Shown here in pieces: positions 31,000 through 46,061 of a DNA stretch of 47,327 nucleotides. A program made the translations under genes and the position numbers. The notes under the pieces were generated by a model. That model saw nothing but the letters and a program-made list of their open reading frames with translations. It was not told the origin of the DNA and searched no databases. Position 1 is the first letter of the stretch, and each line of letters opens with the position of its first letter. The stretch lies in IMG/VR virus record IMGVR_UViG_3300043821_000003, one strand, 5' to 3'. Source of the stretch: a virus.

Positions 31000-32667
31000 T
31001 TAAATCCTTCTGTCCATAATCTCAACCGTATTTCCGATCAGTCCTCTCAGTTCATTTTCAAGCAATGCAAGGGAGTCTGGTGCGTCATCATGTGGCACTT
31101 TGCCGGATCGGGTATAAGTAGTCACCTGCTTCAAGAAAGCTGCATACTGACTGTTCCTTGCGTACAAGGACGGGTCTTTGAAATAGAACTTCTTCAAGAT
31201 GTTGTCCGATGCAAATTCAATACGGGTCTGCTTGTTACTGATCGTCTGCTTCGTTCGGATATTGCACACATACTTCCTGTCAGTCAAAATCTGCTGCACA
31301 TCACGGGCAAAATACTTACCTGCATTATTCGACTCAAAGGTACTGGCTACCACTTTGTTATCAATGAGTGCTTTCGCACATTCCGGTTTGGTTACTTCCG
31401 GTACAGAGTCATCAAAGACTACATCTACAATATAGACCTCACTTCCATATACCGCAGCAATCGGCATAGCACAGAAGTCATCTCCGGTGTCCGCAGTATC
31501 ACAGACAGCAATGATACTGTCAGGATCACGGTCAATCGGCAGTTCAAAGTATCTGTTAAGACTCTTCTCCGGGAAGAGGATTCCTTTTGCTTCAAATGGC
31601 TGCTGCTGAAACTCAGACTCAAACTGTTCCTCAGAAAGCATCTCACGCTGATCCCTGAAATACTGAGTGGTAAAAACCTTCCTGCCCTCACGCATATACT
31701 CAAAGTTACTTTCATCTGTCACCGGATCAAGAGCAGGTGTCTCAATGATCTTGCATCGTTTTCCCTGCTTCTGCATCTCTTCCTGCAAGTGACCGATAGG
31801 ATCATACAGAGAGTATCGTGTACCGCAGATGACGATAGGCGTACCCTCAATGGCACGTCCGATAATATCACCGGAAATGACCTCCCACTTGTCATCGAGT
31901 CTCTGACGGTTCTTTGCTTCCTCACGTCCTTCCACACAGTCATCAAGGTACAGAAGGTTGGTTGCTTCGGAAAGACCTACCTGACGGGCATCAATGGATC
32001 GACACATGACCGTAGGGAATCGGGATTTATGCAAAAGGTTGATGATCTTCGTATCGGCATTGGTCTGGACAAGTTTGCTCTCCGGGAAGATATCATAAAA
32101 ATGATAGTCACTGGGAAGAGTCAGGTATTCCAGACATCCCAGATAGAACGACTTAACAAGGTCATCACCTGTACCTTCCATAAGAGTTGCTCTGTCCGGG
32201 TGCTTACCGGAAAGCATATTCGTGAAGTTGATACCTAACTGGGACTTCCCGGCTCTCTTCGGCATGGAGATGGATAGGAAGTCCAGTTTCCCGTCAAGAA
32301 TCTCCTGATATGCGTCTACATATCTTCTCAGATAATGACGGCGGGGCTGATAGAACTTCTTGTCAAGTGGCTTGCCGTACTCTACCGCTTGTAAGTAATC
32401 ATCGAAGAAATGCTGTGCCCCGAAAAGAAGTGACCTGAACATCAGATCATCAAACTCTCTGGCTTCATCGAATTTCTGACTACATACCGTCACACGCAGT
32501 CCCCATGAGATACGATTACGCAGTTCATGATTCCATGCGTGTGCTGTCTGGAAGTCAATCTTCTCATACTCCCGGCAGACAGCAAACATTTCTTCGTAAG
32601 CCGACCTGTCAAGCGGATTCCTTTCTATAGCTTCATAAATCTTCTGTTTTAATTTCAAATAATTCAT
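31000..32667 (-). CDS. terL: Terminase large subunit
   Basis: ATPase motifs MPKRAGKS and LLYLDDCVEG, and nuclease-domain motif VPHDDAPDS. AGGAGG precedes the ATG at 32667 (ORF track start is 32733). Confidence 0.85.
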   Translation of the reverse strand: MNYLKLKQKIYEAIERNPLDRSAYEEMFAVCREYEKIDFQTAHAWNHELRNRISWGLRVTVCSQKFDEAREFDDLMFRSLLFGAQHFFDDYLQAVEYGKPLDKKFYQPRRHYLRRYVDAYQEILDGKLDFLSISMPKRAGKSQLGINFTNMLSGKHPDRATLMEGTGDDLVKSFYLGCLEYLTLPSDYHFYDIFPESKLVQTNADTKIINLLHKSRFPTVMCRSIDARQVGLSEATNLLYLDDCVEGREEAKNRQRLDDKWEVISGDIIGRAIEGTPIVICGTRYSLYDPIGHLQEEMQKQGKRCKIIETPALDPVTDESNFEYMREGRKVFTTQYFRDQREMLSEEQFESEFQQQPFEAKGILFPEKSLNRYFELPIDRDPDSIIAVCDTADTGDDFCAMPIAAVYGSEVYIVDVVFDDSVPEVTKPECAKALIDNKVVASTFESNNAGKYFARDVQQILTDRKYVCNIRTKQTISNKQTRIEFASDNILKKFYFKDPSLYARNSQYAAFLKQVTTYTRSGKVPHDDAPDSLALLENELRGLIGNTVEIMDRRI

Positions 32668-32684: not shown

Positions 32685-32713
32685 AAAAAAAAGGACTGTC
32701 AAAACGACAGTCC
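32685..32713 (-). terminator. Strong intrinsic terminator (GGACTGTC-GTTTT-GACAGTCC + T8)
   Basis: Perfect 8-bp stem followed by eight T on the minus strand. It ends 18 nt before the terL start. Confidence 0.75.
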
Positions 32714-32741
32714 CATTGGACAAACTGTAGCACCTCTACAG

Positions 32742-32888
32742 CTATTTACATATTAACTTGAATGGCAGTGTAATCACCCAGACCATAGGGCGTACTACCA
32801 GATTTATTGTTACCCACCAACATAGTGAGAAGAACAGCTTAATACACCACCATGTAAACCACAGTAGTCCGATCACTAGATATCCCAT
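32742..32888 (-). CDS. 48-aa Trp-rich hydrophobic peptide
   Basis: MGYLVIGLLWFTWWCIKLFFSLCWWVTINLVVRPMVWVITLPFKLICK. AGGAGGG lies 7 nt upstream. Below the ORF-track cutoff. Confidence 0.5.
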   Translation of the reverse strand: MGYLVIGLLWFTWWCIKLFFSLCWWVTINLVVRPMVWVITLPFKLICK

Positions 32889-32944
32889 CTTACGCCCTCC
32901 TTTCGTCCGGGGTAGAGAAGGTAGAGTATTTTCTAATTTTGTTC

Positions 32945-32984
32945 ATACTTTTTATAATATAGTCCCTACTAGAAGAAGTTATAG
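32945..32984 (-). promoter_or_regulatory. Copy A of a repeated ~40-48-nt element (CTATAACTTCT...CTAGTAGGGA...ATTATA.AAGTAT)
   Basis: It shares four ordered blocks with copy B at 36427-36474 and lies about 60 nt upstream of the 48-aa peptide ORF. Confidence 0.5.
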
Positions 32985-33010
32985 CAAAATCGTGTTTTGC
33001 TCTACTTACT

Positions 33011-33385
33011 CTACCTCATTTCACGGTTTACACCATCCACAAATGCTGACGCATTTCTCATATTCTTGAAAGTGTACTGACCTGTGATTGCATTTATGCG
33101 AATTGTGTTGAAGCACAAGAAGTGCTTGTACTCACAATACTGAATCTTCGATACCGGGGAGGACAACCGCTGCTTCTTAATCAGTCCGGTGCGTCCCGTG
33201 ATTAAACCATCCTTCACTTCAAGCGAAGTGGTAAGCCAGTTCAGCCCACACCATGCAACGATAACCAATGCCGTAACAACCATTGCTGTACCTGCATCGT
33301 CCTTCTCTCCAATTCCTCCTACGAAGCAAAGCAACGCCAGAAATAAAGGAATGGTGTAACCTATTATGTTCTTTCTAATCTTCAT
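33011..33385 (-). CDS. Membrane protein with a bacterial PH-like (bPH_2/YdbT-type) C-terminal domain
   Basis: Two N-terminal TM helices, then SLEVKDGLITGRTGLIKKQRLSSPVSKI. Translationally coupled to the upstream HTH gene. Confidence 0.5.
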   Translation of the reverse strand: MKIRKNIIGYTIPLFLALLCFVGGIGEKDDAGTAMVVTALVIVAWCGLNWLTTSLEVKDGLITGRTGLIKKQRLSSPVSKIQYCEYKHFLCFNTIRINAITGQYTFKNMRNASAFVDGVNREMR

Positions 33386-33633
33386 GATAAGTCCTCTCTT
33401 TCATTTTCGACTTTGTACCCATCTTCCGGTACAGGCGTGTCTTTAGGGACAACCATGATCTTGTACCCCATTGCTGAAAGCATTTGCTCCAAGTTATCTA
33501 CTCTCATGCTGCTTCCACGATTCAGAATACCTGTTACATTGGATTGACTTTTGAATCCTGCCAGTTCAGCCAGTTTGGATTGACTCAGCTTTTTTAGAGT
33601 CATGATTTCTTTTACAACATCTTTTGCTGTCAT
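33382..33633 (-). CDS. XRE-family HTH regulator (83 aa from MTAKDV)
   Basis: LSQSKLAELAGFKSQSNVTGILN is an HTH. AAGGAGG precedes the ATG at 33633. Confidence 0.75.
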   Translation of the reverse strand: MTAKDVVKEIMTLKKLSQSKLAELAGFKSQSNVTGILNRGSSMRVDNLEQMLSAMGYKIMVVPKDTPVPEDGYKVENEREDLS

Positions 33634-33655
33634 ATCGCACCTCCTTGTTGACTGT

Positions 33656-33684
33656 ATTGTAGCAAATACATTTTTGTATGTCAA
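33656..33684 (-). promoter_or_regulatory. Consensus promoter TTGACA-17-TACAAT for the HTH gene, with an operator palindrome in the spacer
   Basis: -35 at 33684-33679 and -10 at 33661-33656. The operator ATACAAAAATGTAT (read on the minus strand) is at 33666-33679. Confidence 0.65.
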
Positions 33685-33738
33685 TACCTTTATGTATTAA
33701 AAGTGACTTTTTAATTTTTGCGGAACTTTCGCACCTCA

Positions 33739-33779
33739 CCCGCCCCGGCGGGCGGGGGTCTGTTTCCCCCCTCCGGGGG
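33739..33779. other. Two adjacent GC-rich hairpins (CCCGCCC-CGGC-GGGCGGG; CCCCC-CTCC-GGGGG)
   Basis: Read directly at 33739-33756 and 33766-33779. They lie in the divergent intergenic region of the island. Confidence 0.6.
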
Positions 33780-33851
33780 TATGCTGTCCCGGTGCTGTCA
33801 TCCTGTCACCAGATCACCAGAAAATAATTTTAAAATAAATACAAAAATGTA

Positions 33852-33880
33852 TTGACAAATACAAAAATGTATTATATACT
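33852..33880 (+). promoter_or_regulatory. Promoter TTGACA-17-TATACT for the plus-strand cassette, flanked by and overlapping operator palindromes
   Basis: -35 at 33852-33857 and -10 at 33875-33880. ATACAAAAATGTAT occurs at 33839-33852 and 33859-33872, and the variant ATACAAAAAGGTAT at 33892-33905. Confidence 0.65.
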
Positions 33881-34013
33881 ATACTCAACAAATACAAAAA
33901 GGTATTTGATAGCCAACAAATAATTATAGGCTGTCAATGCTGCTGTACAGCAGGCAAGCCGCCCGGTGTACAGATTGCACAAATTGATAATTGAATATAG
34001 GAGGTCAAGTATT

Positions 34014-34391
34014 ATGAGAGAATACGCAGAGATCAAGGAAACATTAGAAACTAGAAAAGACCGCAGTGCATGGGATAAAGGCGTTACAATATACTCCCTT
34101 GAATTATTAGAAGAATATGCAGAGCGGGCAGCGTATGAGGGCAGACAGGCAGCCAACACCGCAGAGTTTAAAGAGTGGCTAAAGAATGGGGCTTCTGACT
34201 GGGATCAATACAGTTGGGGCGGTTCATCCCTTATTTATAACTCAGACATTGCAGAGCGGCTCTGCTGCCCGTCAGAACTCAAAAAGACCCGCAACGGTGA
34301 ACGCAGACCTAACAGCCGTGAGGAATGGTTAGACACTCAGGCAAGAGCATTGCGTCAGGCTGCGGGCAGGCTCACAAGAGCCGCTTTCTAA
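34014..34391 (+). CDS. Hypothetical protein (125 aa), a family seen by me on Firmicutes mobile elements
   Basis: RBS is AGGAGG. Motifs SAWDKGV...YSWGGSSLIYNSDIAERLC.PSELKKTRNGERRPN..EEWLDTQARAL. Function unknown. Confidence 0.6.
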   Translation: MREYAEIKETLETRKDRSAWDKGVTIYSLELLEEYAERAAYEGRQAANTAEFKEWLKNGASDWDQYSWGGSSLIYNSDIAERLCCPSELKKTRNGERRPNSREEWLDTQARALRQAAGRLTRAAF

Positions 34392-34492
34392 CCCGTGTGG
34401 GCGGGTATAAATAGCCAGTTAAGCCCACAGCGTCCCGGCTCTGCCGGGGGTCTGGAAACAGTACATAATTGAATAATTGGAGGTATAGAACA

Positions 34493-34729
34493 ATGACAGC
34501 TAAAGAATATTGTTTAACACATGATAGTGTAGCCTATGCAAGTATGTTGGGCGGTGTAGAGATCAAGGGTATTGAATACGGCATAACAGACAGCATTTAT
34601 TGTGTATGTGGTGCGTGGTGTAGTGAAAAGAGTTATCATCATGTAAAAATACACTACACAGCCCACGGCATCCCGTTCTTTATTGTACACGGTCAACGGG
34701 TTTACATGGGTGAATGTATCAGGATGTAA
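34493..34729 (+). CDS. Hypothetical protein (78 aa)
   Basis: RBS is GGAGG. Its leader ATAATTGAATA resembles the leader of the preceding gene. Confidence 0.5.
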   Translation: MTAKEYCLTHDSVAYASMLGGVEIKGIEYGITDSIYCVCGAWCSEKSYHHVKIHYTAHGIPFFIVHGQRVYMGECIRM

Positions 34730-34802
34730 CCAACAACAGCCCCGGCAGCAGTCCGGGGCATTGGTTTATAATGCAGCCATAGGCGGTCACAAGCCCGCAT
34801 AA

Positions 34803-35570
34803 ATGCAGAGTGTAAACCGATATAGAAAAGGACGTGATAGAGTGAAAAGAGTTTGGAGAACGCCAGAACTTGACTATTACAACCTTTACGCCGATATGCT
34901 ACAACAGCCCCATTTACTAATTGCAGGTGCTACGGGCAGCGGTAAAAGCGTTGTAATAAATGGCATGATGACAACAGCACTAAAGGACAGCCCCGCCGCT
35001 GTACAGTTTATATTGATCGACCCTAAACGGGTTGAACTGGTGGACTATAAAGAACTACCCCACACGCTGCGTTATAGCAGTGAACCGGGTGAAATGGTAC
35101 AGGCATTACAGGAAGCTATAACGATAACAGACAACCGTTATAGAGACATGGCACGGCAGCACGTCAAGAAATACGGCGGCGGTGCTGTGTATGTGGTTAT
35201 TGATGAACTAGCCGACCTGATGACAACCAACAAAAAGCAAGTGCAACCGATATTGCAACGGCTTTGTCAGATCGGCAGGGCGGCAAATGTCCACGTTGTA
35301 GCCGCTACACAGTGCCCGTTGTCTGCTGTGATCCCTACACCTATAAAAGTAAACTTTGATAGCCGTGTAGCACTCAGAACCCGCAGCGGACAGGACAGCA
35401 GAAACATTTTAGGCGTGACAGGTTGCGAACTCTTACCCCGGTACGGTCAAGGCTATTACATGACCCCGGAGGGTTGCAAGCTGTATAATATCCCGATGTA
35501 TGAGGATGAAACCCCGGACATAATAGAATATTGGAGGAAACAGAAACCCCGGATTGTATGGAATGGATAG
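34803..35570 (+). CDS. FtsK/SpoIIIE (HerA-related) family P-loop ATPase, motor domain only
   Basis: Walker A IAGATGSGKS, Walker B VYVVIDELADL, plus GRAANVHVVAATQ. No TM or gamma domain. Start uncertain (ATG 34803 or GTG 34842). Confidence 0.8.
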   Translation: MQSVNRYRKGRDRVKRVWRTPELDYYNLYADMLQQPHLLIAGATGSGKSVVINGMMTTALKDSPAAVQFILIDPKRVELVDYKELPHTLRYSSEPGEMVQALQEAITITDNRYRDMARQHVKKYGGGAVYVVIDELADLMTTNKKQVQPILQRLCQIGRAANVHVVAATQCPLSAVIPTPIKVNFDSRVALRTRSGQDSRNILGVTGCELLPRYGQGYYMTPEGCKLYNIPMYEDETPDIIEYWRKQKPRIVWNG

Positions 35571-35577
35571 AACGCCC

Positions 35578-35604
35578 GCCCCGTATGATCCGGGGCTTTC
35601 TTTA
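35578..35604 (+). terminator. Intrinsic terminator after the FtsK-like gene (GCCCCG-7 nt-CGGGGC + TTTCTTT)
   Basis: Stem at 35578-35583 and 35591-35596, followed by a T-rich tract. Confidence 0.55.
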
Positions 35605-35622
35605 TGCCCTCAGAACGCACAC

Positions 35623-35658
35623 ACGCCCCGGCAGCAGGTCTTTCCTACACCGGGGCGT
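35623..35658. other. 9-bp GC-rich hairpin (ACGCCCCGG-18 nt-CCGGGGCGT) 12 nt beyond the terS stop
   Basis: It shares GCCCCGGCAGCAG with the hairpin at 34739-34759. Confidence 0.55.
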
Positions 35659-35669
35659 ATTTCATCAGC

Positions 35670-36323
35670 TTATTTGATTTTAGGGCTTTCTGCCCCTTCT
35701 GCGACTTCTGAGATTTCACCTTCTGGCACGTCTACAATGTCGGCATTGTCAAGATACTTTCTTGCAAGGGCTTCTGTGTCGGCACTGTCACCCAACGGAT
35801 TGTTAGGAGTCAGAACCATTTCTGTCTGATCCTTCATACCGTCATAGTTCTTCTGCCAGAATATGCCAGTGACAGGGTTGACCTTGCCATCCTGCATAAG
35901 TCCCTCACGGTATAAAGCACACACTTTCTGCACCTTTTTGATAAAGTCGGTGCGGGCGGGGTTCGTTGTACAACGGTTGACCCACTCCCATGCAATACCC
36001 TTATCTATTCCTATTGCAGCATACGCAGCTTGATTGCCTATCTTCATATCGTACTTTGCACACGTTTCCAGATAGTGCATGAACCGTCTTTCCATCTCTT
36101 CTATGTCGTTATAGTCCAACTTCTCAGACGGCATGATCTCCATAGTGAACTGAATCATCCGGGAGTTATACCCTTCTGGCAGATCAGGATTGTGACCCTG
36201 TACAATCGGGCTATTTTCTCTTGCTTTTTCCAAGTTCGCAGGGCTACTCTTCTGATACCCCTCTGTCTTTCTGGGCTTTCTGTCCTTCCCTCTCGTTCTG
36301 GGCTTCTTCTGTTCTTCTGCCAT
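35670..36323 (-). CDS. terS: Terminase small subunit
   Basis: 217 aa with a basic N-terminus and the C-terminal pattern NPVTGIFWQKNYDGMKDQ typical of terS proteins. RBS is AAAGGAG. Confidence 0.7.
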   Translation of the reverse strand: MAEEQKKPRTRGKDRKPRKTEGYQKSSPANLEKARENSPIVQGHNPDLPEGYNSRMIQFTMEIMPSEKLDYNDIEEMERRFMHYLETCAKYDMKIGNQAAYAAIGIDKGIAWEWVNRCTTNPARTDFIKKVQKVCALYREGLMQDGKVNPVTGIFWQKNYDGMKDQTEMVLTPNNPLGDSADTEALARKYLDNADIVDVPEGEISEVAEGAESPKIK

Positions 36324-36426
36324 TCTTACCTACTCCTTTCTGTTCCTTCTCTTTCTGCTCTCTTTTCCATCTCTCTACATAACTTTCCATAGTTCTGCTC
36401 CTTTCTGCGACTCTTCAAATTGAAGA

Positions 36427-36474
36427 ATACTTGTATAATTTTCCCTAGTAGTCGTATACTAAGAGAAGTTATAG
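36427..36474 (-). promoter_or_regulatory. Copy B of the repeated element, ~105 nt upstream of terS
   Basis: CTATAACTTCT-12 nt-CTACTAGGGA-AA-ATTATA-C-AAGTAT on the minus strand. Next to it is the palindrome TCTTCAA-A-TTGAAGA (36412-36426). Confidence 0.5.
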
Positions 36475-36502
36475 AGTAATTCTTCAATCTGAGGAATAAG
36501 TG

Positions 36503-36745
36503 TTAATATTCATCACTCTCACCGTCAAAAAGATACTCGTCACCTGTCTCACCATTACTAAGCAAGACCTGATAACCAAGGCTTTCTGCCAGTTCTACAA
36601 ATTTCCTGACAGTCATTCCCATTCCGTTATCTCTTGACAGCAGAGTATAAAGCGTTTTCTCATTGATCCCGGTACGTTCTGCAATTACGCTTTTCGGAAT
36701 CTCTTCTTCATCTGTAATCATATCAATGAAGTCTTTTACATCCAT
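36503..36745 (-). CDS. Small HTH DNA-binding protein (80 aa)
   Basis: SVIAERTGINEKTLYTLLS is HTH-like. It is the last gene before the terS upstream region, making it a candidate late regulator. Confidence 0.55.
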   Translation of the reverse strand: MDVKDFIDMITDEEEIPKSVIAERTGINEKTLYTLLSRDNGMGMTVRKFVELAESLGYQVLLSNGETGDEYLFDGESDEY

Positions 36746-38488: not shown

Positions 38489-39271
38489 TTACCTCCTGTA
38501 TCTGCTTATGCTTTCTGCAATAATCTGTAGTTCTCTGTCTGGAAGCGGCGGCTTGCACACCTCTTCATTGACTCTCTGCAATTCCTGATAAATCTGCATC
38601 GGAGTGTACCCGGTATTGTGCAATGCACCTGCCAGACTGGTGAGAGAAATGTTTCTGCCACCGTCCGGGATTTCCGGGTAGTCCGGTCTGACAAAGATTC
38701 TCCCACCCGCAGGCTTCGGAAACTTAGGAGAATAGATACGCTGTACCATGCTTGAATTGCTCCCGGTCTTTTCTGTCTCTTTGAAATACTTCTCCACTAC
38801 ATAGTCAATAGCTTCCTGATTATCAATGATCTCTGGGAAGATCAGCACCTTCCCAGTCATAATAAAGAACCGTCTTGCCTGATAGATTTCTACGCCTGCA
38901 AGATTGTTCTTACCTGAGAACGGCAGCTTGCCACGCATGAGGATATGTACTCCACGTCCACTCCGGGACTTCTCTGTGTATGAGTGGCAGGCTTGCATAA
39001 TATCTGCACACAGCGGGGTCATAAGACCGTCCTCAAAGCCTGCATCAATGTCAATGCCTACAATGTTCTGATCGGCAAAGACATAACCTATGTGATCGTA
39101 GTGTCCGTTCTCCACCGCCCACTCAGCCTGCTCAAAGGTAGACCAAGTTTCCGGGGCAGTGGATGAAGCGGCTTTTCGCTCAAATGCTCTCATGGGAACT
39201 TTTGAACCGTCCCAAGCACACACCCACTGATTCTGATTCTTTAATTCTTTTGGTATTCTGGAATAGTCCAT
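38489..39271 (-). CDS. Bifunctional primase-polymerase (AEP PrimPol N-terminal domain protein)
   Basis: GIDIDAGF (DxD) and SRSGRGVHIL (sGxGxH) motifs. Confidence 0.8.
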   Translation of the reverse strand: MDYSRIPKELKNQNQWVCAWDGSKVPMRAFERKAASSTAPETWSTFEQAEWAVENGHYDHIGYVFADQNIVGIDIDAGFEDGLMTPLCADIMQACHSYTEKSRSGRGVHILMRGKLPFSGKNNLAGVEIYQARRFFIMTGKVLIFPEIIDNQEAIDYVVEKYFKETEKTGSNSSMVQRIYSPKFPKPAGGRIFVRPDYPEIPDGGRNISLTSLAGALHNTGYTPMQIYQELQRVNEEVCKPPLPDRELQIIAESISRYRR

Positions 39272-39286
39272 CTGTTCCCACGCTCC

Positions 39287-39967
39287 TTACTCTGTAATTA
39301 ATTCGCTGTGTGGTAGTGATTCGATGAAATGGCAGAACGTATGCCATTCATCAAGTTTATGGTTTCTTCGTGCATGATAGATGTTTTTCAACACCGCATA
39401 ATTAAGCTGCACGGTACGCTTCTGGTTATAAGATGACGGCAAAAGCTGAATCATCTGCCACCAGTCACGCTTGTCCTTCTGTCCAAGGAAATCAAGTCTT
39501 GCGTTGTTCAGTGCATCCACCACCATCTTCATGATGATAAGATTAGTCTGAGACAGGTGATCCGTGGAGAAATCTTCCAAGGTAAACTCTTTTGCCTGAA
39601 TCTTGTGCATTGTGCTACACGAATTTGCGACTGTACCCACCTTGTAGGTGTCAAATTCTTTCCACCAATAGAGAGGTGCTTCCAAGTCCACTGTGACGTT
39701 AATCATTCTCAGGAACTTCCCGTGATCGTTACCTGCTGCCGCAAGTTTCTTCATGAGAGAGAGGTCATTTTCTCCTACTGCATAACAAGCAAATTCTGAA
39801 CAATCATGTTCTTTCGGATGACAAATGCCTTCACGATCAATAATCCCACATTTTCCACAATCTACAGCAGGATAACTGTCTGATTTATCCCATGAGTTCA
39901 TAGGATTTCTCATACCTCTAATTGCAGCTTCCCATCCGTAGGTTTCTGCCTTTGAAATTCTAATCAT
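39287..39967 (-). CDS. ThyX-fold (flavin-dependent thymidylate synthase-like) protein with a divergent active-site motif
   Basis: Colinear with ThyX (H..F...I.V.V.L.AP......; LP....T....N...L.N....R...H...E), but the RHRxxSxxxxSxRY segment reads DTYKVGTVANSCSTMH. Confidence 0.6.
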   Translation of the reverse strand: MIRISKAETYGWEAAIRGMRNPMNSWDKSDSYPAVDCGKCGIIDREGICHPKEHDCSEFACYAVGENDLSLMKKLAAAGNDHGKFLRMINVTVDLEAPLYWWKEFDTYKVGTVANSCSTMHKIQAKEFTLEDFSTDHLSQTNLIIMKMVVDALNNARLDFLGQKDKRDWWQMIQLLPSSYNQKRTVQLNYAVLKNIYHARRNHKLDEWHTFCHFIESLPHSELITE

Positions 39968-40154
39968 GATTCATACCATCCCTTCTGCGAACTCTCATGT
40001 AGTCTTTGTAGTCCAGACCATTCATCTTCGCTGCTGTATGCAACGCTCTCTTCTTTGTGCCGTATGTGCCGGGGATAGGCTCTTTACAGCCTACCTCCGT
40101 GACATACCATCTACTGCTACCATGTTCTTTGTGTACTTCGTACTTCATAACCAT
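39960..40154 (-). CDS. Hypothetical protein (64 aa from MVMKYEV); its frame stays open upstream to 40250
   Basis: RBS is GGAAAGGAAAG. See the finding on the possible fusion with 40145-40366. Confidence 0.4.
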   Translation of the reverse strand: MVMKYEVHKEHGSSRWYVTEVGCKEPIPGTYGTKKRALHTAAKMNGLDYKDYMRVRRRDGMNHD

Positions 40155-40366
40155 AGTCTTTGCTTTCCTTTCCAATCGGTTGATAACCTGTTCAGGATCA
40201 AGGTCACAGAGAGAGAATGAAACCACTGTGACCGGAAGAACCTTCTGCACTCGCCCACGTTGCAGTCTGTAGTCGGTGACTTAAAGCCTGCCAATAAGTC
40301 AACGTAGTCAATCGCAGCTTGCTCTATGATCCCGAACCTGAGATTGTCCAATCCTTTATCTGTCAT
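40145..40366 (-). CDS. Hypothetical small protein (IIEQAAIDYV...ECRRFFRSQWF family)
   Basis: 73-aa ORF overlapping the next ORF by 106 nt in another frame. Confidence 0.45.
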   Translation of the reverse strand: MTDKGLDNLRFGIIEQAAIDYVDLLAGFKSPTTDCNVGECRRFFRSQWFHSLSVTLILNRLSTDWKGKQRLWL

Positions 40367-40380
40367 ACCTTAACCCTCCA

Positions 40381-42507
40381 TCACATTGACTTCCTTTCGG
40401 CAATCTCAGCCATTTTTGCAGCGTTCAGGCGGGTATCACCATGAACTCTGCTGTATGACAGGTAGCCATTCATTCTGTCAATCTTCGTGAGGTTGGTACT
40501 GCCACATACCGGGCAAACATCCATCTCCAACTCTTCATGACCGCAATCATCACAGTATGCCAGAGACAGGTTGACTCCTTCGTAATAGCCTAACTCCATT
40601 GCTCTGCATACCAGAGTCTTGACGGCGTTCCGGTTGTAGCTGATCGGATATCTCACATACTGAATCTTGCCACCGTTGCAGAGATTCCAGAAACGCCCCT
40701 CCAAGTCCTGCTTCTGGATCGGTGTGATATCTTCCGTGACATGACAGTGAAAGCTATTGCTTACATACGGTCTGTCCGATACATTCTTAATCACTCCGTA
40801 CTTCTTTCTGAACTGCTCCACCTGCAAACCACAAAGGCTCTCAGCAGGTGTGCCGTAGATTGCATACAGCCATCCGTCAGCTTCCTTGTATTCATTGACC
40901 TTATCGTTGATGTGCTGCATAACTTCCAGTGCAAATGCACCGTCCTCTGCAATGGACTTGCCGTTGTAGAGTTCCTGCAACTCATTAAGTGCCGTGATAC
41001 CAAAGGATGCAGTCATAGGTTTGAGAAGTGGTTTGATCTTGTCCGAAGGTTTCAAATGACCTCCATAGAAACCACCCTCGCAATAGGCAATCGGGTTGGT
41101 ACTGGCTCTCATTTCTCCAAGGTACTCATAGGTACGCTTATGAATGTTACGGATCATTTCAAGGTAGAAGTCCAAGACCTCATAGAAGTCCTTGCCCTCT
41201 TCTCTTGCTTTTGCAAGAATCATCGGCAGATGCAGGCTGACTGCACCGATGTTAAAACGTCCTTCAAAGATAGGCTTATCATCTTCGTCTGCCGGGTGCA
41301 TACCGCCACGCTCATACCACGGACTGAGGAAAGCACGACACCCCATAGGGCTTACCACTCTGCCATATTTCTTGTACATCTCAGCCACATAGCCGTCACC
41401 CGTAAGAGACAGCCAGTCAGGGTACATTGTCTTGCAGCTACAGTCAATCCCGGCTTCAAATACATCTTCGTTGATACAGCCTTCACCATGAAGATTCTTG
41501 TCATATAGGAATACCAGTTTAGGGAAAAGGACTGGCTTCTTATTTCCCGGCTTACCCTCACCTGTCATGTGAACACGCAAGAAAGTCTTGCTTGCCATTT
41601 TACCGAAACGATCCGTAGCCAGACCGAAGGTCATAGTGATAAATGGATAGTCACCACGGGATGATCCCACAGTGTTCAGCTTCATTTCAATTCCTTGAAA
41701 TCCCTGTTCAAAATCTCTTTCTACCTTCTGCATAGCCCATTCATGAACTTCCTGCGTGAAGGTCTGCTGATTGCGAATTTCCATGTATTCATCCACATAC
41801 TTCTTATAAGATTTCTCAGCGTAAGGTGCTGCCAACTTGTCAACTTCCGGTACTGTAAATCCTCCGTACTGCTGACTTGCGGTTGCGAGGATGATATCAC
41901 CCAGTACATCAAAGAACACATCAAGCGTTTTCGGTTCGTTGTACCAGATATTCCCCATCTCAAAGCCACCCTTCATAACCTCATTGACTCTGAACAGGCA
42001 ACAGTTCATAGTGTCCAGTCTTGCGGACTGATCGTGAATGTAAATGTAACCGTCCCGGCAAGCCTGCAACTCTTCCTGAGTCATGAAGAACTTACGGTAC
42101 AGACGCTTATTCAGTTCGTTGAAGATCAAGCAACGCTTTGTAGCCACCAGTGCTGAGTCCGTGTTTGCGTTCTCTTTATCTCCCTGAAATCTAACAACCT
42201 GCGATTTCTGGAATACCCTGTCTAACACATGAACAAAGTCCTGCTTATAGTTTCTGTAGTTACGATAGGATGTAGCAATCCGTGGATCGTACTTATCAAG
42301 TACCTGTTCCACAATATTGTGCATCACGGCAACCGGGATATCAGTAAGTCCTTTTTCTTCGATCACTTCCAGTACCGAACCAACGATTTCATGAAATGCT
42401 GTATCATCCAGTGTAATCATGACTCTGGAAGCAGACTTGTTGACAGCGTTTACGATCTTTTCACCGTCAAACTCTTCCAGTGTTCCGTCTTTCTTAATTA
42501 CTTTCAT
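40381..42507 (-). CDS. nrdD: Anaerobic ribonucleoside-triphosphate reductase
   Basis: N-terminal ATP cone (MKVIKKDGTLEEFD..KI), C-terminal zinc ribbon CDDCGHE...CPVCGS, and glycyl-radical tail RMNGYLS. RBS is AAGGAGAAG. Confidence 0.9.
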   Translation of the reverse strand: MKVIKKDGTLEEFDGEKIVNAVNKSASRVMITLDDTAFHEIVGSVLEVIEEKGLTDIPVAVMHNIVEQVLDKYDPRIATSYRNYRNYKQDFVHVLDRVFQKSQVVRFQGDKENANTDSALVATKRCLIFNELNKRLYRKFFMTQEELQACRDGYIYIHDQSARLDTMNCCLFRVNEVMKGGFEMGNIWYNEPKTLDVFFDVLGDIILATASQQYGGFTVPEVDKLAAPYAEKSYKKYVDEYMEIRNQQTFTQEVHEWAMQKVERDFEQGFQGIEMKLNTVGSSRGDYPFITMTFGLATDRFGKMASKTFLRVHMTGEGKPGNKKPVLFPKLVFLYDKNLHGEGCINEDVFEAGIDCSCKTMYPDWLSLTGDGYVAEMYKKYGRVVSPMGCRAFLSPWYERGGMHPADEDDKPIFEGRFNIGAVSLHLPMILAKAREEGKDFYEVLDFYLEMIRNIHKRTYEYLGEMRASTNPIAYCEGGFYGGHLKPSDKIKPLLKPMTASFGITALNELQELYNGKSIAEDGAFALEVMQHINDKVNEYKEADGWLYAIYGTPAESLCGLQVEQFRKKYGVIKNVSDRPYVSNSFHCHVTEDITPIQKQDLEGRFWNLCNGGKIQYVRYPISYNRNAVKTLVCRAMELGYYEGVNLSLAYCDDCGHEELEMDVCPVCGSTNLTKIDRMNGYLSYSRVHGDTRLNAAKMAEIAERKSM

Positions 42508-43000
42508 GTAAGACCACTTCTCCTTTCTGTAATGATTTTTGTACGTCAATCACTCTCTGATTGGTACTGCCCGCCCAGTGATAATTGACATCCTTCAACT
42601 CTTCTTCAAAGCGTCCATCCACCAGTACGTCTGCATATTTGACTACTGCAAGCAGATATTTGTTTGCAAGAATCTGTTCCCATGTGTACCCAGTGTAGAC
42701 CCATATTGTTTTCTTCGGAAATCTCTTCTGTACTGCTTTCATGATGGAGAATACTGCTCCACGGTTCTGCGGGTGCAGCGGATCACCACCTGAGAAAGTA
42801 ATACCTGCCACATACGGTTTTTCCAGTGCTTTCATGATTTCATTAAATGCTCTCTTGTCAAACACTAAACCGTCATCAGGATTCCATGTGACAGGATTCT
42901 GACACCCTTTGCAATGGTGTTCACATCCTGCAACCCAGAGGACTACCCGGAGTCCGTCACCGTTGTTCATGTCATCCTGAGTAATGTTGTGATATCTCAT
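42494..43000 (-). CDS. nrdG: Anaerobic RNR activating enzyme (radical SAM)
   Basis: GCEHHCKGCQNP cluster motif, about 168 aa, upstream of and overlapping nrdD. Confidence 0.9.
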   Translation of the reverse strand: MRYHNITQDDMNNGDGLRVVLWVAGCEHHCKGCQNPVTWNPDDGLVFDKRAFNEIMKALEKPYVAGITFSGGDPLHPQNRGAVFSIMKAVQKRFPKKTIWVYTGYTWEQILANKYLLAVVKYADVLVDGRFEEELKDVNYHWAGSTNQRVIDVQKSLQKGEVVLHESN

Positions 43001-43335
43001 TAGATATCTCCCGGCTTACGATGCAGTGAATTTTCTACTGTAAACCCTTCCGGGTAACGGGCTTTCAGCTTTTCAATGTTCATCTGCATGACTGTATCAA
43101 TGTCCGTTCCCAGTGCATTACACGCTTCTGCGATCATCCAGAGACAGTCACCAAGTTCCTTTTCCATGTGTTCAAGGTTCACTTCATGTCCCTGATATTT
43201 CTTTTGCAGGATTCCTGCAACCTCTCCTGCTTCACTGTTCAAACCAAAAACGGCATGAAACAGTCTATCTTCTTTCTGATCGTAAGGAATACTGCAAGTT
43301 CTGATTGCAAGTTCCTGATATTCTTTGCCTGTCAT
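43000..43335 (-). CDS. MazG-like nucleotide pyrophosphohydrolase
   Basis: GLNSEAGEVAGILQK...ELGDCLWMIA carries the EExxE/D-type MazG motifs. Confidence 0.8.
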   Translation of the reverse strand: MTGKEYQELAIRTCSIPYDQKEDRLFHAVFGLNSEAGEVAGILQKKYQGHEVNLEHMEKELGDCLWMIAEACNALGTDIDTVMQMNIEKLKARYPEGFTVENSLHRKPGDI

Positions 43336-43338
43336 GAT

Positions 43339-43470
43339 TTAGTCCTCCTGTTTCCACTCTTCTTTAGTCGGTGCTTCCTTATCTTCTCTGCCTGCACCAA
43401 TAACTGCTACACAGATCAGGAAAATCTGACCTGCAATAAAACCTCCGATAAATCCAAGTAATGCTCCCAT
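43339..43470 (-). CDS. 43-aa single-pass membrane peptide
   Basis: MGALLGFIGGFIAGQIFLICVAVIGAGREDKEAPTKEEWKQED. RBS is AAGGAG. Below the ORF-track cutoff. Confidence 0.5.
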   Translation of the reverse strand: MGALLGFIGGFIAGQIFLICVAVIGAGREDKEAPTKEEWKQED

Positions 43471-43482
43471 AGTAATTTCTCC

Positions 43483-43866: not shown

Positions 43867-43878
43867 AGTGCTTCCTCC

Positions 43879-46060: not shown

Positions 46061-46061
46061 A

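What the first reader, a model, noticed from the sequence alone, without database searches (positions are those of the whole stretch)
32715..35669. ~3-kb self-regulated accessory island between terS and terL
terS (36323 to 35670) and terL (32667 to 31000) are normally adjacent or overlapping in tailed phages. Here 3.0 kb lie between them. The region contains three plus-strand genes, antisense to the late operon, driven by their own near-consensus promoter. It also holds a divergent pair made of an HTH regulator and a membrane PH-like protein, and a repeated upstream element followed by a 48-aa Trp-rich hydrophobic peptide and a strong terminator. By eye the region is richer in GC than the rest of the genome. 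It is punctuated by CCCCGG/CCGGGG-type hairpins that are rare elsewhere, and its genes end in their own terminators. The layout looks like an acquired moron or island with an autonomous on/off switch, placed where it interrupts the packaging operon. Candidate roles are prophage-encoded defence or superinfection exclusion, packaging interference, or a hitch-hiking mobile cassette.
Basis: partly seen in the sequence, partly recalled or inferred. Interest (0 to 1): 0.7.

Follow-up and report, generated by a model that had tools for sequence, protein, structure and literature searches.

The report
Repressor-gated, ribozyme-cut operon between terminases
The 3-kb gap between the two DNA-packaging genes of this gut-bacterium virus is not a recent insertion but a fixed feature of its whole lineage. 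It is a small repressor-controlled two-way switch driving swappable accessory genes, and one arm is an operon that two predicted self-cleaving RNAs should cut into single-gene messages and that ends in a conserved FtsK-like motor gene.

Summary
The gene layout is real, but "acquired island" is the wrong reading.

- **Conserved position.** All 46 related phage contigs that hold both terS and terL (terL 71-99% identical) carry an antisense FtsK-like ATPase gene between them. The gap is 2.6-4.7 kb.
- **What varies.** Only the other genes swap: small soluble, often acidic proteins on the FtsK strand, and mostly membrane proteins on the terL strand.
- **The switch.** An 83-aa Xre-type HTH gene faces the antisense operon across two back-to-back promoters, each matching 11 of 12 consensus positions. 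Five copies of a 16-bp palindrome lie here and nowhere else in the genome. The palindrome sequence changes with the HTH allele in relatives.
The operon contains a Pistol ribozyme (34391-34455; 65 bits against a threshold of 34.5) and a twister-like ribozyme (34765-34816; E 1e-11). Covariation in relatives supports both. 38 of 50 distinct relatives carry at least one.
- **Composition.** GC is not elevated overall (0.451 vs 0.444). The CCCCGG/CCGGGG enrichment is real and comes partly from ribozyme stems, hairpins and one conserved G/C-rich element.
- **Most likely function (inferred).** A repressor-gated burst operon for entry-time accessory genes plus a lysogen-expressed moron bay.

Each component is known; this combination was not found in the literature I could search. 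The role of the FtsK-like protein is unknown.

The parts
31000..32667 (-). terL (large terminase, 555 aa); first gene of the structural block
   Evidence: phrog_38 E 1.5e-48 and Terminase-T7_RNaseH-like. JGI gene call of 555 aa.
32692..32714 (-). Strong intrinsic terminator (10-bp stem plus T8) ending ~25 nt before the terL start codon
   Evidence: Terminator scan. The 74-nt stretch before terL gives blastn matches in 51 loci. There is no room for a promoter between it and the terL ribosome-binding site, as read from the sequence.
32742..32888 (-). p48: 48-aa Trp-rich hydrophobic peptide (one predicted membrane segment); swappable cargo
   Evidence: ORF list. Homologues at 54-100% identity in 19 relatives only. 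Hydropathy. No family match.
32912..33011 (.). Outer inverted boxes CTCTAC-N3-CTCTAC flank a core containing TGCTATAAC.
   Evidence: Pattern search gives 2 hits against 0.01 expected. An nhmmer profile finds it in 59 sources. In loci that hold both regions there are usually two copies, one upstream of terS and one next to the HTH gene. The RNA fold of the window copy is not significant (z -0.76).
33011..33385 (-). mem124: 124-aa protein with two predicted membrane segments and a weak bacterial PH-like C-terminus; swappable cargo; start overlaps the HTH stop by 4 nt
   Evidence: ORF list. bPH_2 E 0.021, 15.5 bits, below the threshold of 22. Hydropathy. Present in only 3 relatives.
33382..33633 (-). 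HTH: 83-aa Xre-family regulator, the inferred repressor of both switch promoters
   Evidence: HTH_3 E 1.5e-5, 25.3 bits, above the threshold of 23. JGI gene call of 83 aa. Alleles at 31-100% identity sit at the same position in 59 relatives. Paralogue of p80 at 36503-36745.
33656..33684 (-). P-minus: promoter TTGACA-17-TACAAT with an extended -10 TG, driving HTH-mem124-p48
   Evidence: 11 of 12 consensus positions.
33664..33698 (.). Operators O4 (33664-33679, one mismatch) and O5 (33683-33698). They lie in the spacer of P-minus and over or just upstream of its -35.
   Evidence: Inverted-repeat analysis. Pattern AATAC-N6-GTATT.
33707..33783 (.). Conserved G/C-rich intergenic element ending in GAAAGTTCCGCAAAAATTAAAAAG (as read on the minus strand); function unexplained
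   Evidence: blastn matches in 61 loci whatever the HTH allele. Unique in the genome. No conserved RNA structure or covariation on the minus-strand reading; the plus-strand reading was not folded. No Rfam match on either strand.
33838..33906 (.). Operators O1 (33838-33853), O2 (33858-33873) and O3 (33891-33906). They cover the -35, the spacer and the start region of P-plus.
   Evidence: Three direct copies and their reverse-complement matches at P-minus. Exact pattern matches number 4 against 0.06 expected, all inside the switch.
33852..33880 (+). P-plus: promoter TTGACA-17-TATACT, driving the antisense operon
   Evidence: 11 of 12 consensus positions.
34014..34391 (+). p141 (125 aa from the ATG at 34014): acidic soluble orphan protein, first cassette of the operon
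   Evidence: 4782 homologues, all unnamed or 'hypothetical', most of 125 aa. No Pfam, PHROG or PADLOC match. AlphaFold model mean pLDDT 70, helical, no PDB fold match. In relatives the same slot holds other acidic proteins, for example cluster c4 with charge -29.
34391..34455 (+). Pistol self-cleaving ribozyme; its first base is the last base of the p141 stop codon. Predicted cleavage between G34450 and U34451.
   Evidence: Rfam RF02679: 65.2 bits against a gathering score of 34.5, E 1e-9, full model length. My own covariance model finds 42 copies, in the window and 40 relatives, all on the strand of the FtsK-like operon. 14 of 15 pairs show compensatory changes and 97.8% of cells are paired. 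The pseudoknot loops co-vary, as read from the alignment. The cleavage position comes from the family consensus (established knowledge; for the substrate strand).
34493..34729 (+). p86 (78 aa from the ATG at 34493): small orphan protein, second cassette
   Evidence: phrog_17101 (unknown function) E 4e-9. JGI gene call of 78 aa. Present in 7 relatives.
34739..34759 (+). GC-rich hairpin GCCCCGG-N7-CCGGGGC with a weak T-tail. A terminator-like hairpin of this type lies just upstream of the FtsK-like gene in nearly all relatives.
   Evidence: Terminator scan. Upstream regions of the FtsK-like gene in about 50 relatives.
34765..34816 (+). Twister-like (type P1, minimal) self-cleaving ribozyme. Predicted cleavage between U34769 and A34770. 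The ATG at 34803 lies inside its P2 stem.
   Evidence: Rfam RF03160: 58.2 bits, below the gathering score of 67.2, but E 1e-11 over the full model length. Similar copies in relatives score 59.2 and 50.5 bits. On 12 sequences, 6 of 11 pairs show compensatory changes and 96% of cells are paired, while slid controls give 20-49%.
34842..35570 (+). FtsK/SpoIIIE-like ATPase (242 aa from the GTG at 34842; an alternative ATG at 34803 gives 255 aa). RecA-like motor domain only, basic (pI 9.8). It is the conserved core gene of the module.
   Evidence: PF01580 E 4e-33. Aligns with residues 208-465 of the P. aeruginosa FtsK chain 2IUU, E 2e-33. Most homologues are 242 aa. Walker A GATGSGKS and Walker B DE are invariant even in a 42%-identical relative. 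Present and antisense in 46 of 46 relatives.
35578..35655 (+). Terminator-like hairpin of the antisense operon (35578-35596, tail TTTCTTTATG) and a second GC hairpin (35625-35655) in the 99-nt convergent gap with terS
   Evidence: Terminator scan; sequence.
35670..36323 (-). Probable terS (217 aa), convergent with the FtsK-like gene
   Evidence: phrog_606 matched by 19 of 20 orthologues. One homologue is named terminase small subunit. The model shows short helices, a long helix and a beta-hairpin, with core pLDDT 80-94. No significant PDB match by sequence or fold.

Best explanation
WHAT IT IS (shown)
- A lineage-wide regulatory and accessory module sits at the junction between the replication genes plus terS and the structural genes of a temperate Lachnospiraceae phage. 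A 98-99%-identical prophage lies in a Mediterraneibacter faecis genome.
- Two back-to-back promoters with near-consensus sigma-70-type hexamers carry five copies of one 16-bp palindrome.
- One promoter drives HTH, then a membrane PH-like protein, then a 48-aa membrane peptide. That operon stops at a strong terminator just before terL.
- The other promoter drives, antisense to the phage's other genes here, p141 - Pistol ribozyme - p86 - hairpin - twister-like ribozyme - FtsK-like ATPase. That operon ends convergent with terS.

HOW IT MOST LIKELY WORKS (inferred)
- The 83-aa HTH protein binds the palindromes as a dimer. It represses its own promoter (2 sites) and, more tightly, the antisense promoter (3 sites, including one past the start point).
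- When phage DNA enters a cell that has no HTH protein, both promoters fire. The antisense operon gives a short burst and is then shut off.
- In a lysogen the HTH operon idles at its autoregulated level and supplies the membrane cargo, as superinfection-exclusion or conversion genes. The antisense operon stays off.
- The burst transcript cuts itself at the two ribozymes into three mRNAs.
  - The Pistol abuts the stop codon of the upstream gene and stays on it as a structured 3' end.
  - The twister stays on the 5' end of the FtsK-like mRNA.
  - Each swappable cassette is thereby expressed independently of its neighbours.
- The hairpin before the FtsK-like gene lowers its expression relative to the small proteins.
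- The small acidic soluble cassettes are probably entry-time counter-defence or host-takeover proteins.
- The conserved FtsK-like motor is a fixed early function acting on DNA. Its target is unknown.
For: Architecture
- ORFs, promoters, terminators and repeats.
- Conservation of the backbone: 46 of 46 relatives, with gaps of 2.6-4.7 kb. A prophage copy is in a bacterial genome.

Switch
- AATAC-N6-GTATT occurs 4 times exactly plus once with one mismatch, only at the two promoters (0.06 expected).
- In relatives with other HTH alleles the same positions hold other palindromes:
  - ATCATG-N4-CATGAT
  - TCAAG-N6-CTTGA
  - AAAGA-N6-TCTTT
  - ATCGTG..CACGAT
- Near-identical phages (terL 99%) carry different HTH and operator alleles.
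- The candidate operator of the main CI/Cro switch, TCCCTA-N2-TAGGA, is absent from the module.

Ribozymes
- Rfam scores.
- Covariation.
- 38 of 50 distinct relatives have at least one.
- The Pistol starts 0-5 nt after the stop codon of unrelated upstream genes. Its sequence identity is somewhat higher when the upstream gene is shared than when the downstream gene is shared.

Cargo dichotomy
- Antisense cargo has no predicted membrane segments, and the first-slot proteins are acidic (charge -4 to -29).
- Cargo on the terL strand is mostly membrane proteins: a TM2-domain protein, a membrane-anchored Mrr_cat nuclease, and also Bro-N/Ant-like proteins.

Hairpin
- A hairpin lies before the FtsK-like gene in nearly all relatives.

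Precedent
- Clustered self-cleaving ribozymes flank single genes in prophages, including the anti-restriction gene ardA (PMC3088659).
Against: - No expression data. The timing (entry burst versus lysogen) rests only on operator positions.
- HTH binding to the palindromes is inferred from co-variation, not measured.
- Ribozyme activity is predicted. The twister-like element scores below Rfam's curated threshold and lacks the optional stems.
- 12 of 50 relatives have no detectable known ribozyme, so self-cleavage is not essential to the module.
- None of the small proteins matches any known anti-defence, defence or other family. The p141 model has no fold match.
- A universally conserved FtsK-like gene fits poorly with a purely 'counter-defence' label.
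- A transcript from terS could read through the whole module on the minus strand, because no good terminator follows terS. The antisense operon might therefore serve mainly in transcriptional interference.
Confidence: 0.5

Rival explanations
1. One reading: a recently acquired, self-regulated moron or defence island that interrupts the packaging operon and is expressed from the prophage to exclude other phages.
For: - It has its own promoters and terminators.
- Cargo differs between near-identical phages.
- The cargo on the terL strand is of the membrane-protein and nuclease kind typical of prophage exclusion genes.
- The FtsK/HerA-type domain also occurs in the defence proteins SspH and mad8.
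Against: - The backbone (FtsK-like gene plus switch) is present in 46 of 46 relatives, down to 71% terL identity.
- Overall GC equals the genome's.
- The PADLOC matches are domain-level only and the partner genes are absent.
- Three operators on P-plus argue that the FtsK operon is off whenever HTH is present, that is, in lysogens.
Confidence: 0.12
2. A second immunity region, analogous to immI of phage P22. The HTH/operator pair would be a heteroimmunity determinant. A resident prophage's HTH would shut off an essential early function of an incoming homoimmune phage: the FtsK-like operon or, in some relatives, an antirepressor.
For: - HTH and operator alleles are swapped between phages that are 99% identical elsewhere, the classical signature of immunity specificity.
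- The FtsK-like gene is core.
- Some relatives carry Bro-N/Ant-like genes downstream of HTH.
- A separate canonical CI/Cro/integrase switch exists at 7789-10251.
Against: - It is not shown that the FtsK-like operon is essential.
- The window has no antirepressor gene.
- Allele swapping could equally reflect ordinary cassette recombination in a hot spot.
Confidence: 0.2
3. The FtsK-like ATPase is an accessory of DNA packaging, replication or concatemer handling. It would sit next to terS for functional reasons, and the small genes would simply ride along.
For: - It is invariably adjacent to and convergent with terS.
- It is basic, which would fit DNA binding, and its catalytic motifs are intact.
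- FtsK-like identity and terS identity fall together across relatives.
Against: - It is on the opposite strand from all packaging genes and under an early-type host promoter with a dedicated repressor.
- The phage already has a complete terS/terL/portal set.
- It lacks the alpha and gamma domains of true FtsK.
Confidence: 0.1
4. The antisense operon matters mainly as RNA. Convergent transcription against terS and late read-through, plus ribozyme processing, would tune the switch from early to late gene expression. The encoded small proteins would be secondary.
For: - No convincing terminator follows terS on the minus strand.
- A strong terminator precedes terL in 51 loci, so late transcription needs read-through.
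- Palindromic PAL elements lie on both sides of the module, one upstream of terS and one beside the HTH gene.
Against: - The FtsK-like protein is under clear purifying selection, with invariant catalytic residues.
- The cassettes are intact ORFs with ribosome-binding sites.
Confidence: 0.08

Closest known systems
Clustered self-cleaving ribozymes flanking genes in prophages (hammerhead clusters of Perreault et al. 2011, PMC3088659; twister, Pistol and related gene associations reviewed in PMC6765202 and PMC4604425)
   Same: - Small self-cleaving ribozymes sit in intergenic spaces of a short prophage operon.
- The flanked genes are small, variable and mostly of unknown function.
- Different ribozyme classes (Pistol, twister, a hammerhead II candidate in L075) occupy equivalent places.
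- Firmicutes and gut context.
   Different: - Here the operon has a defined promoter, a dedicated divergent repressor with operators, a fixed last gene (FtsK-like) and a fixed genomic address between terS and terL across a large lineage.
- I found no description of that context in the papers I could search.
- The original lists of 'ribozyme-associated genes' (Roth 2014; Weinberg 2015) could not be read, so overlap with them is unknown.
Anti-CRISPR (acr) operons with an autoregulatory HTH 'aca' gene
   Same: - A strong promoter carries inverted repeats and is bound by a small HTH repressor encoded in the locus.
- The small genes are variable and the regulator is conserved.
- The locus can sit inside the structural region of a phage.
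- The logic is burst, then shut-off.
   Different: - The HTH is divergent, not the last gene of the same operon.
- No homology to known Acr or Aca families was found.
- The operon ends in an ATPase.
- Ribozymes are present.
immI secondary immunity region of Salmonella phage P22 (from my own knowledge)
   Same: - A second small-repressor-controlled switch lies away from the main CI/Cro region, among late genes.
- Allele specificity differs between related phages.
- Some relatives carry antirepressor-like (Bro-N) genes.
   Different: - No sequence relation to Mnt, Arc or Ant was seen in the family searches of the window proteins.
- The window has no antirepressor.
- The controlled operon encodes an FtsK-like ATPase.
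Phage 'FtsK-like DNA translocase' genes (PHROG 1358; Mycobacterium cluster-J-type phages, many Bacillus phages)
   Same: - Same motor domain: phrog_1358 E 3e-58, and 28-43% identity to annotated phage genes.
- Function is likewise uncharacterised in the papers found.
   Different: - Those genes lie in other genomic contexts and are not known to be repressor-gated or preceded by ribozymes.
- This one is a minimal 242-aa motor domain.
Bacterial FtsK/SpoIIIE
   Same: RecA-like beta domain with Walker A and B motifs; E 2e-33 to the P. aeruginosa FtsK structure.
   Different: There is no membrane anchor, no alpha domain, and no gamma (KOPS/SRS-reading) domain. The protein aligns only with residues 208-465 of the crystallised fragment.
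Synthetic ribozyme insulators (RiboJ-type; from my own knowledge)
   Same: A self-cleaving ribozyme between promoter or upstream RNA and a coding sequence makes expression independent of context. The twister stays on the 5' end of the downstream mRNA, as RiboJ does.
   Different: This is natural, not engineered. The Pistol copies travel with the upstream gene as 3'-end formers.

Membership tests
Pistol ribozyme (Rfam RF02679) | Score at or above the curated gathering threshold over the full model | tested here: met
   65.2 bits against 34.5; model positions 1-68 of 68.
Pistol ribozyme (Rfam RF02679) | Stems P1, P2 and P3 supported by compensatory changes | tested here: met
   42 copies, 24 distinct. 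14 of 15 pairs have changes on both sides and 97.8% of cells are paired. No shuffle out of 500 reaches this, and slid controls give 26-58%. Caveat: the alignment was fitted to the model.
Pistol ribozyme (Rfam RF02679) | Pseudoknot between the P1 loop and the P2/P3 junction | tested here: met
   By inspection of alignment A2: GUGGGC/GCCCAC in the window, UGCGCC/GGCGCA in L034, UUGCAAC/GUUGCAA in L011.
Pistol ribozyme (Rfam RF02679) | Self-cleavage at the G-U step | not testable with these tools
   The G-U junction is present at 34450/34451. Activity needs in vitro transcription.
Twister ribozyme, type P1 (Rfam RF03160) | Score at or above the curated gathering threshold | tested here: not met
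   58.2 bits against 67.2 (E 1e-11, full model length). The optional stem is replaced by a 5-nt loop. It is therefore called 'twister-like'.
Twister ribozyme, type P1 (Rfam RF03160) | Stems P1, P2 and P4 supported by compensatory changes; conserved core nucleotides | tested here: met
   12 sequences: 6 of 11 pairs have changes on both sides and 96.2% of cells are paired, against 20-49% when slid. The core matches the consensus except one C-to-A change (GGUCACAAGCCCG).
Twister ribozyme, type P1 (Rfam RF03160) | Self-cleavage activity | not testable with these tools
   Needs experiment.
FtsK/SpoIIIE DNA translocases | RecA-like motor (beta) domain with Walker A and Walker B motifs | tested here: met
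   PF01580 E 4e-33. Alignment to 2IUU. GATGSGKS and DE are invariant.
FtsK/SpoIIIE DNA translocases | Alpha domain, gamma (sequence-reading) domain and membrane anchor of bona fide FtsK | tested here: not met
   The 242-aa protein covers only residues 208-465 of the FtsK fragment and has no predicted membrane segment. It is FtsK-like, not an FtsK orthologue.
Small terminase (TerS) | Match to a TerS sequence family | tested here: inconclusive
   19 of 20 orthologues match phrog_606 (best E 6.6e-11), but the window protein itself does not. No Pfam match. No PDB sequence match even with a profile.
Small terminase (TerS) | TerS fold (N-terminal DNA-binding helices, oligomerisation helix, beta-barrel) | tested here: inconclusive
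   The model has the expected order of elements with core pLDDT 80-94. Foldseek finds nothing better than E 2. The putative TerS-like entry 2AO9 appears only at E ~5.
Small terminase (TerS) | Gene next to terL | tested here: not met
   It is separated from terL by 2.6-4.7 kb in every relative. It is the last gene before the module, after primase.
Xre-type autoregulatory repressor with operators | HTH_3 domain above threshold | tested here: met
   25.3 bits against 23.
Xre-type autoregulatory repressor with operators | Palindromic sites overlapping its own promoter and the divergent one, specific to the locus | tested here: met
   Five sites. The site sequence changes with the HTH allele.
Xre-type autoregulatory repressor with operators | Binding and repression | not testable with these tools
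   Needs EMSA or reporter assays.
Moron (autonomous accessory gene in a prophage) | Present in some and absent from other closely related phages | tested here: met
   Met for the cargo. Counts of the 80 relative loci with a homologue covering at least 60% of the query: p141 22, p86 7, mem124 3, p48 19. Replacement genes differ.
Moron (autonomous accessory gene in a prophage) | The same criterion applied to the FtsK-like gene and the switch | tested here: not met
   Present in 46 of 46 relatives that hold both terS and terL.
Known anti-phage defence systems (PADLOC) | Full set of system genes | tested here: not met
   Only domain-level matches of the ATPase to SspH, mad8 and HerA. Matches of the other proteins are weak (E at or above 0.017).
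acr-aca type anti-defence operon | Known Acr or Aca homologue, with the HTH as last gene of the same operon | tested here: not met
   The HTH is divergent. No family match for the small proteins. No dedicated anti-defence library was available.

The most novel reading that the evidence does not exclude
The module is a phage 'cassette platform', comparable in logic to an integron.
- It has a fixed promoter, a repressor and a terminal FtsK-like effector.
- In between sit exchangeable single-gene cassettes that bring their own self-cleaving ribozyme as a 3'-end or insulator unit.
- It fires once, at DNA entry, to deliver counter-defence proteins.

If true, this would give the long-unexplained association of Pistol, twister and hammerhead ribozymes with prophage genes a concrete function. 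It would also provide a defined, testable system.
Probability: 0.2. Interest if true: 0.8.

Novelty: new variant of a known kind. Interest (0 to 1): 0.55.

Why it matters
- **Open question.** Bacterial self-cleaving ribozymes have been known for over a decade to cluster near prophage genes, but the reason 'has not yet been determined' (PMC6765202).
- **A complete, bounded system.** This locus has a promoter, a candidate repressor with operators, two ribozymes of different classes, three ORFs and a terminator. Dozens of natural variants differ in which cassettes and ribozymes are present, and a prophage lies in a named gut bacterial species (Mediterraneibacter faecis).
- **What it makes testable.**
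  - Whether ribozymes act as cassette insulators or 3'-end formers.
  - Whether the small acidic proteins are counter-defence factors.
  - What a minimal phage FtsK-like motor does.
- **Annotation.** In this abundant human-gut phage lineage terS and terL are never adjacent. A 3-kb gap there should not be read as an insertion.

Tried and rejected
- **Near-identical cultured phages.** None by megablast. The terS protein finds only unannotated faecal contigs.
- **p141 function.** No Pfam, PHROG or PADLOC match. 4782 homologues are all unnamed. The AlphaFold model (pLDDT 70) has no PDB fold match.
- **terS fold.** The Foldseek search was not significant.
- **Conserved G/C-rich intergenic element (33707-33783).**
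  - Tested as a structured RNA on the minus-strand reading: no conserved structure or covariation.
  - No Rfam match.
  - Not repeated elsewhere in the genome.
  - It is not consistently a hairpin, because in some relatives the C-runs are replaced by G-runs.
  - A link to FtsK-type recognition sequences is pure speculation, because the protein lacks a gamma domain.
- **PAL element as an RNA hairpin.** The window copy does not fold better than shuffles. In one variant the outer boxes are direct rather than inverted repeats. This favours protein-binding boxes around a TGCTATAAC core over an RNA stem, but it is unresolved.
- **New ribozyme class in relatives without Pistol or twister.** The gap before the FtsK-like gene is filled by an ordinary terminator-like hairpin. 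Rfam finds nothing in five such loci.
- **Genome-collection scan with the FtsK-like profile.** It mostly returned host FtsK genes. Only three loci were closer than 50%. The 54% hit (L088) sits in an unrelated context without ribozymes.
- **'GC-rich acquired DNA'.** Rejected.

Full report
**1. The genome**

The window carries a 692-bp terminal direct repeat, so it reads as a complete, circularly closed 46,635-bp phage genome. It is identical to a JGI metagenome contig.

Almost everything is on the minus strand. The order is:
- a CI-like/Cro-like switch with a large serine recombinase (7789-10251);
- early and replication genes, including ERF, helicase, NrdD/NrdG, MazG, PriCT and a D5-type primase;
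- a small HTH protein (p80);
- the 217-aa candidate terS;
- the region in question;
- terL, an SPP1-type portal, MuF, an SU10-type capsid protein, tail genes and lysis genes.

A 98-99%-identical copy lies integrated in a 168-kb contig of a Mediterraneibacter faecis assembly. The phage is therefore temperate and infects a human-gut Lachnospiraceae host.

**2. Checking the observation**

- The island holds six ORFs:
  - p48 (32742-32888, minus strand);
  - mem124 (33011-33385, minus strand);
  - HTH (33382-33633, minus strand);
  - p141 (34014-34391, plus strand, 125 aa);
  - p86 (34493-34729, plus strand, 78 aa);
  - an FtsK-like gene (34842-35570, plus strand, 242 aa).
- HTH and mem124 are tandem and overlap by 4 nt. 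They are not divergent.
- GC content is 0.451 inside against 0.444 outside. Only the plus-strand half is mildly high (0.472).
- CCCCGG/CCGGGG motifs are truly enriched: 14 of 34 copies, against 2.1 expected (P 6e-9).
- The promoter-like sites at 33852-33880 (plus strand) and 33656-33684 (minus strand) each match 11 of 12 consensus positions.

**3. terS**

- The window protein matches no family on its own.
- 19 of 20 orthologues from relatives match phrog_606, 'terminase small subunit' (best E 6.6e-11).
- One public homologue carries that name.
- The AlphaFold model has a confident core (pLDDT 80-94). It shows short helices where a DNA-binding domain would be expected, then a long helix and a beta-hairpin. 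Foldseek gives no significant match.
- I treat it as a probable terS, with a probability of about 0.8.

**4. Not an island**

A scan of IMG/VR with terL returned 80 related contigs at 71-99% identity.

- In all 46 that contain both terS and terL, an FtsK-like gene lies between them on the opposite strand.
- The order is always primase - terS - FtsK-like (antisense) - variable - HTH - variable - terL - portal.
- The gap is 2.6-4.7 kb, with a median of 3.2 kb.
- The FtsK-like protein is 41-98% identical across relatives. Its Walker A and B residues are invariant even in the most distant copy.
- The other genes come and go. Among the 80 relative loci, p141 is found in 22, p86 in 7, mem124 in 3 and p48 in 19.
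- Phages with 99% identical terL, such as L002, have a different HTH allele (33% identity) and different cargo.

The backbone is therefore ancestral to the lineage, and only the cassettes are accessory.

**5. The switch**

- The palindrome AATACAAAAATGTATT and close variants occur five times, all inside the switch and nowhere else in the genome:
  - three times at P-plus, over the -35, in the spacer, and just past the start;
  - twice at P-minus.
- Four copies match exactly, against 0.06 expected.
- In relatives the same positions are occupied by other palindromes that go with other HTH alleles:
  - ATCATG-N4-CATGAT in L002 and L029;
  - TCAAG-N6-CTTGA in L034;
  - AAAGA-N6-TCTTT in L081;
  - ATCGTG..CACGAT in L062.
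- L011 has an HTH 75% identical to the window's and keeps the window-type site.
- This co-variation is the evidence that the HTH protein binds these sites. Binding itself is inferred.
- The likely operator of the main CI/Cro switch, TCCCTA-N2-TAGGA, is not found in the module.

**6.

*Pistol*
- Rfam finds a full-length Pistol ribozyme at 34391-34455 (plus strand), with 65.2 bits against a threshold of 34.5. It begins on the last base of the p141 stop codon.
- A covariance model built from nine copies finds 42 Pistols, in the window and 40 relatives, all on the strand of the FtsK-like operon.
- 14 of 15 base pairs show compensatory changes.
- The pseudoknot also co-varies.

*Twister-like*
- Rfam finds a twister-P1-like element at 34765-34816 (plus strand). 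It scores 58.2 bits, E 1e-11, below the curated 67.2 because an optional stem is missing.
- Its three stems are supported in 12 sequences: 96% of cells are paired and 6 of 11 pairs are compensatory, while slid controls are poor.

*Distribution and placement*
- One relative has a borderline type II hammerhead.
- Of 50 distinct variable regions, 38 have at least one Pistol or twister. Five loci without any gave no Rfam match.
- Pistols start 0-5 nt after the stop codon of unrelated upstream genes. They are somewhat more similar when the upstream gene is shared than when it is not.
- Twisters sit 33-46 nt after the upstream gene, behind a hairpin. In the window, and in most relatives where the twister is the last element before the FtsK-like gene, it directly abuts the start of that gene.
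- By the family consensus, cleavage should fall at G34450/U34451 and U34769/A34770. That would give three monocistronic RNAs. This is a prediction.
- Nearly all relatives have a GCCCCG...CGGGGC hairpin with a short T-run immediately before the ribosome-binding site of the FtsK-like gene. This suggests attenuated expression of that gene.

**7. Cargo**

- Cargo of the antisense operon has no predicted membrane segment. The first-slot proteins are acidic: p141-type charge -4, c14 charge -7, c4 charge -29 in 125 aa.
- Cargo downstream of HTH is mostly membrane proteins:
  - mem124, with a weak bPH_2 match;
  - p48;
  - a TM2-domain protein;
  - a membrane-anchored Mrr_cat nuclease.
- Bro-N/Ant-like proteins and serine-recombinase-like ORFs also occur there.
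- None of the small soluble proteins matches a known family. The p141 model has no fold match.

**8. Other conserved non-coding features**

(a) A G/C-rich ~77-nt element between the two promoters (33707-33783).
- It is conserved in 61 loci whatever the HTH allele.
- It shows no RNA covariation on the strand tested and remains unexplained.

(b) A ~100-bp palindromic element (PAL, window 32912-33011).
- It was found in 59 sources. Loci that hold both regions usually have two copies, one 100-250 bp upstream of terS and one beside the HTH gene.
- Its core carries a TGCTATAAC extended -10-like motif, and its outer boxes vary between phages.
- The window has a degenerate variant upstream of terS.
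- It may be a regulated promoter that restarts transcription on either side of the module, but this was not tested.

(c) A strong terminator ~25 nt before the terL start, in a stretch conserved in 51 loci. terL transcription must read through it.

**9. Interpretation**

*Shown*
- The module is a conserved, self-contained bidirectional unit with two cargo bays.
- It contains predicted self-cleaving ribozymes and a core FtsK-like ATPase gene.

*Inferred from operator positions*
- HTH represses itself and, more strongly, the antisense operon.
- The antisense operon therefore fires only when HTH is absent, that is, when DNA enters a naive cell.
- The HTH operon idles in lysogens.

*Inferred from cargo type and from precedent*
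- Hammerhead clusters flank the anti-restriction gene ardA in prophages (PMC3088659).
- On that basis the burst bay holds entry-time counter-defence or takeover proteins, and the steady bay holds exclusion or conversion genes.

*Open*
- The role of the FtsK-like motor.
- The main rivals are:
  - a P22 immI-like second immunity region;
  - a packaging or replication accessory;
  - a lysogen-expressed defence;
  - an RNA-level role in early/late switching.

**10. Novelty**

- Ribozyme clusters in prophages, autoregulated HTH-gated accessory loci and phage FtsK-like genes are each known.
- The review literature states that the reason for the ribozyme-gene association is undetermined.
- The combination found here was not described in the papers I could search. 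It comprises a fixed address between terS and terL, a divergent repressor with allele-specific operators, ribozyme-delimited swappable cassettes and a fixed FtsK-like terminal gene.
- The two key source papers could not be read.
- I rate it a new variant of a known kind and of moderate interest, mainly as a tractable system for an old question.

Noticed in passing
window 1-692 and 46636-47327: A 692-bp exact terminal direct repeat. The window is a complete circularly closed (or terminally redundant) 46,635-bp genome.
   Followed up: yes
window 12442-13575 (-): A 377-aa reverse transcriptase (RVT_1) lies between the tail genes and the lysis genes. It may be part of a diversity-generating retroelement. 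Template and variable repeats were not searched for.
   Followed up: no
window 32912-33011; 36436-36476; relatives (e.g. L012 3726-3826 and 7216-7314): A ~100-bp palindromic element family (PAL) has a conserved TGCTATAAC core and phage-specific outer boxes. Loci holding both regions usually have two copies, one upstream of terS and one next to the HTH gene. It may be a regulated promoter or a processing site.
   Followed up: partly
window 33707-33783: A G/C-rich element ending in GAAAGTTCCGCAAAAATTAAAAAG (minus-strand reading) lies between the divergent promoters. It is conserved in 61 loci whatever the HTH allele. It has no covarying RNA structure on the strand tested and no Rfam match, and it is unique in the genome.
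   Followed up: partly
window 32692-32714 (-): A strong intrinsic terminator lies ~25 nt before the terL start codon, in a stretch conserved in 51 loci. Late transcription into terL must read through it, which suggests antitermination control.
   Followed up: partly
window 36503-36745 (-): p80, just upstream of terS, is a paralogue of the island's HTH (25% identity, E 2e-5). L002-type relatives carry a second such gene inside the variable region.
   Followed up: partly
window 7789-10251: The canonical lysogeny module: a Cro-like 93-aa gene (minus strand), a CI-like 122-aa gene (plus strand) and a ~500-aa large serine recombinase (plus strand). A candidate operator, TCCCTA-N2-TAGGA, occurs at 8198 and 8249, and with one mismatch at 8492.
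   Followed up: partly
window 36244-36390 (-): A 48-aa Lys/Glu-rich ORF (MESYVERWK...) overlaps the 5' end of the 217-aa terS reading frame. JGI called it as a gene and started terS 30 codons later. Its start sequence also follows the PAL element in relatives.
   Followed up: no
relatives L002, L005, L036 etc. (cluster c4): At the p141 slot some relatives encode a 125-aa protein with net charge -29 (pI 4.1). This resembles DNA-mimic anti-restriction proteins in composition only; it has no family match.
   Followed up: partly
relatives L034, L044 (cluster c24): The cargo downstream of HTH is a 177-aa protein with two membrane segments fused to an Mrr_cat restriction-endonuclease domain (E 3e-26). 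It is a candidate prophage defence gene.
   Followed up: no
window 38489-47171 (-): Auxiliary nucleotide-metabolism genes typical of phages of anaerobes: anaerobic ribonucleotide reductase NrdD with its radical-SAM activase, MazG, and PAPS-reductase-like genes.
   Followed up: no
L088 2229-7714: A 54%-identical FtsK-like gene in a Clostridia MAG directly follows a 1575-aa ORF. The context is unrelated, with no terminase genes and no ribozymes.
   Followed up: partly
L075 4416-4484 (-): A borderline type II hammerhead (36.0 bits against a threshold of 37, E 0.0014) lies in the antisense operon of a relative that has neither Pistol nor twister.
   Followed up: no
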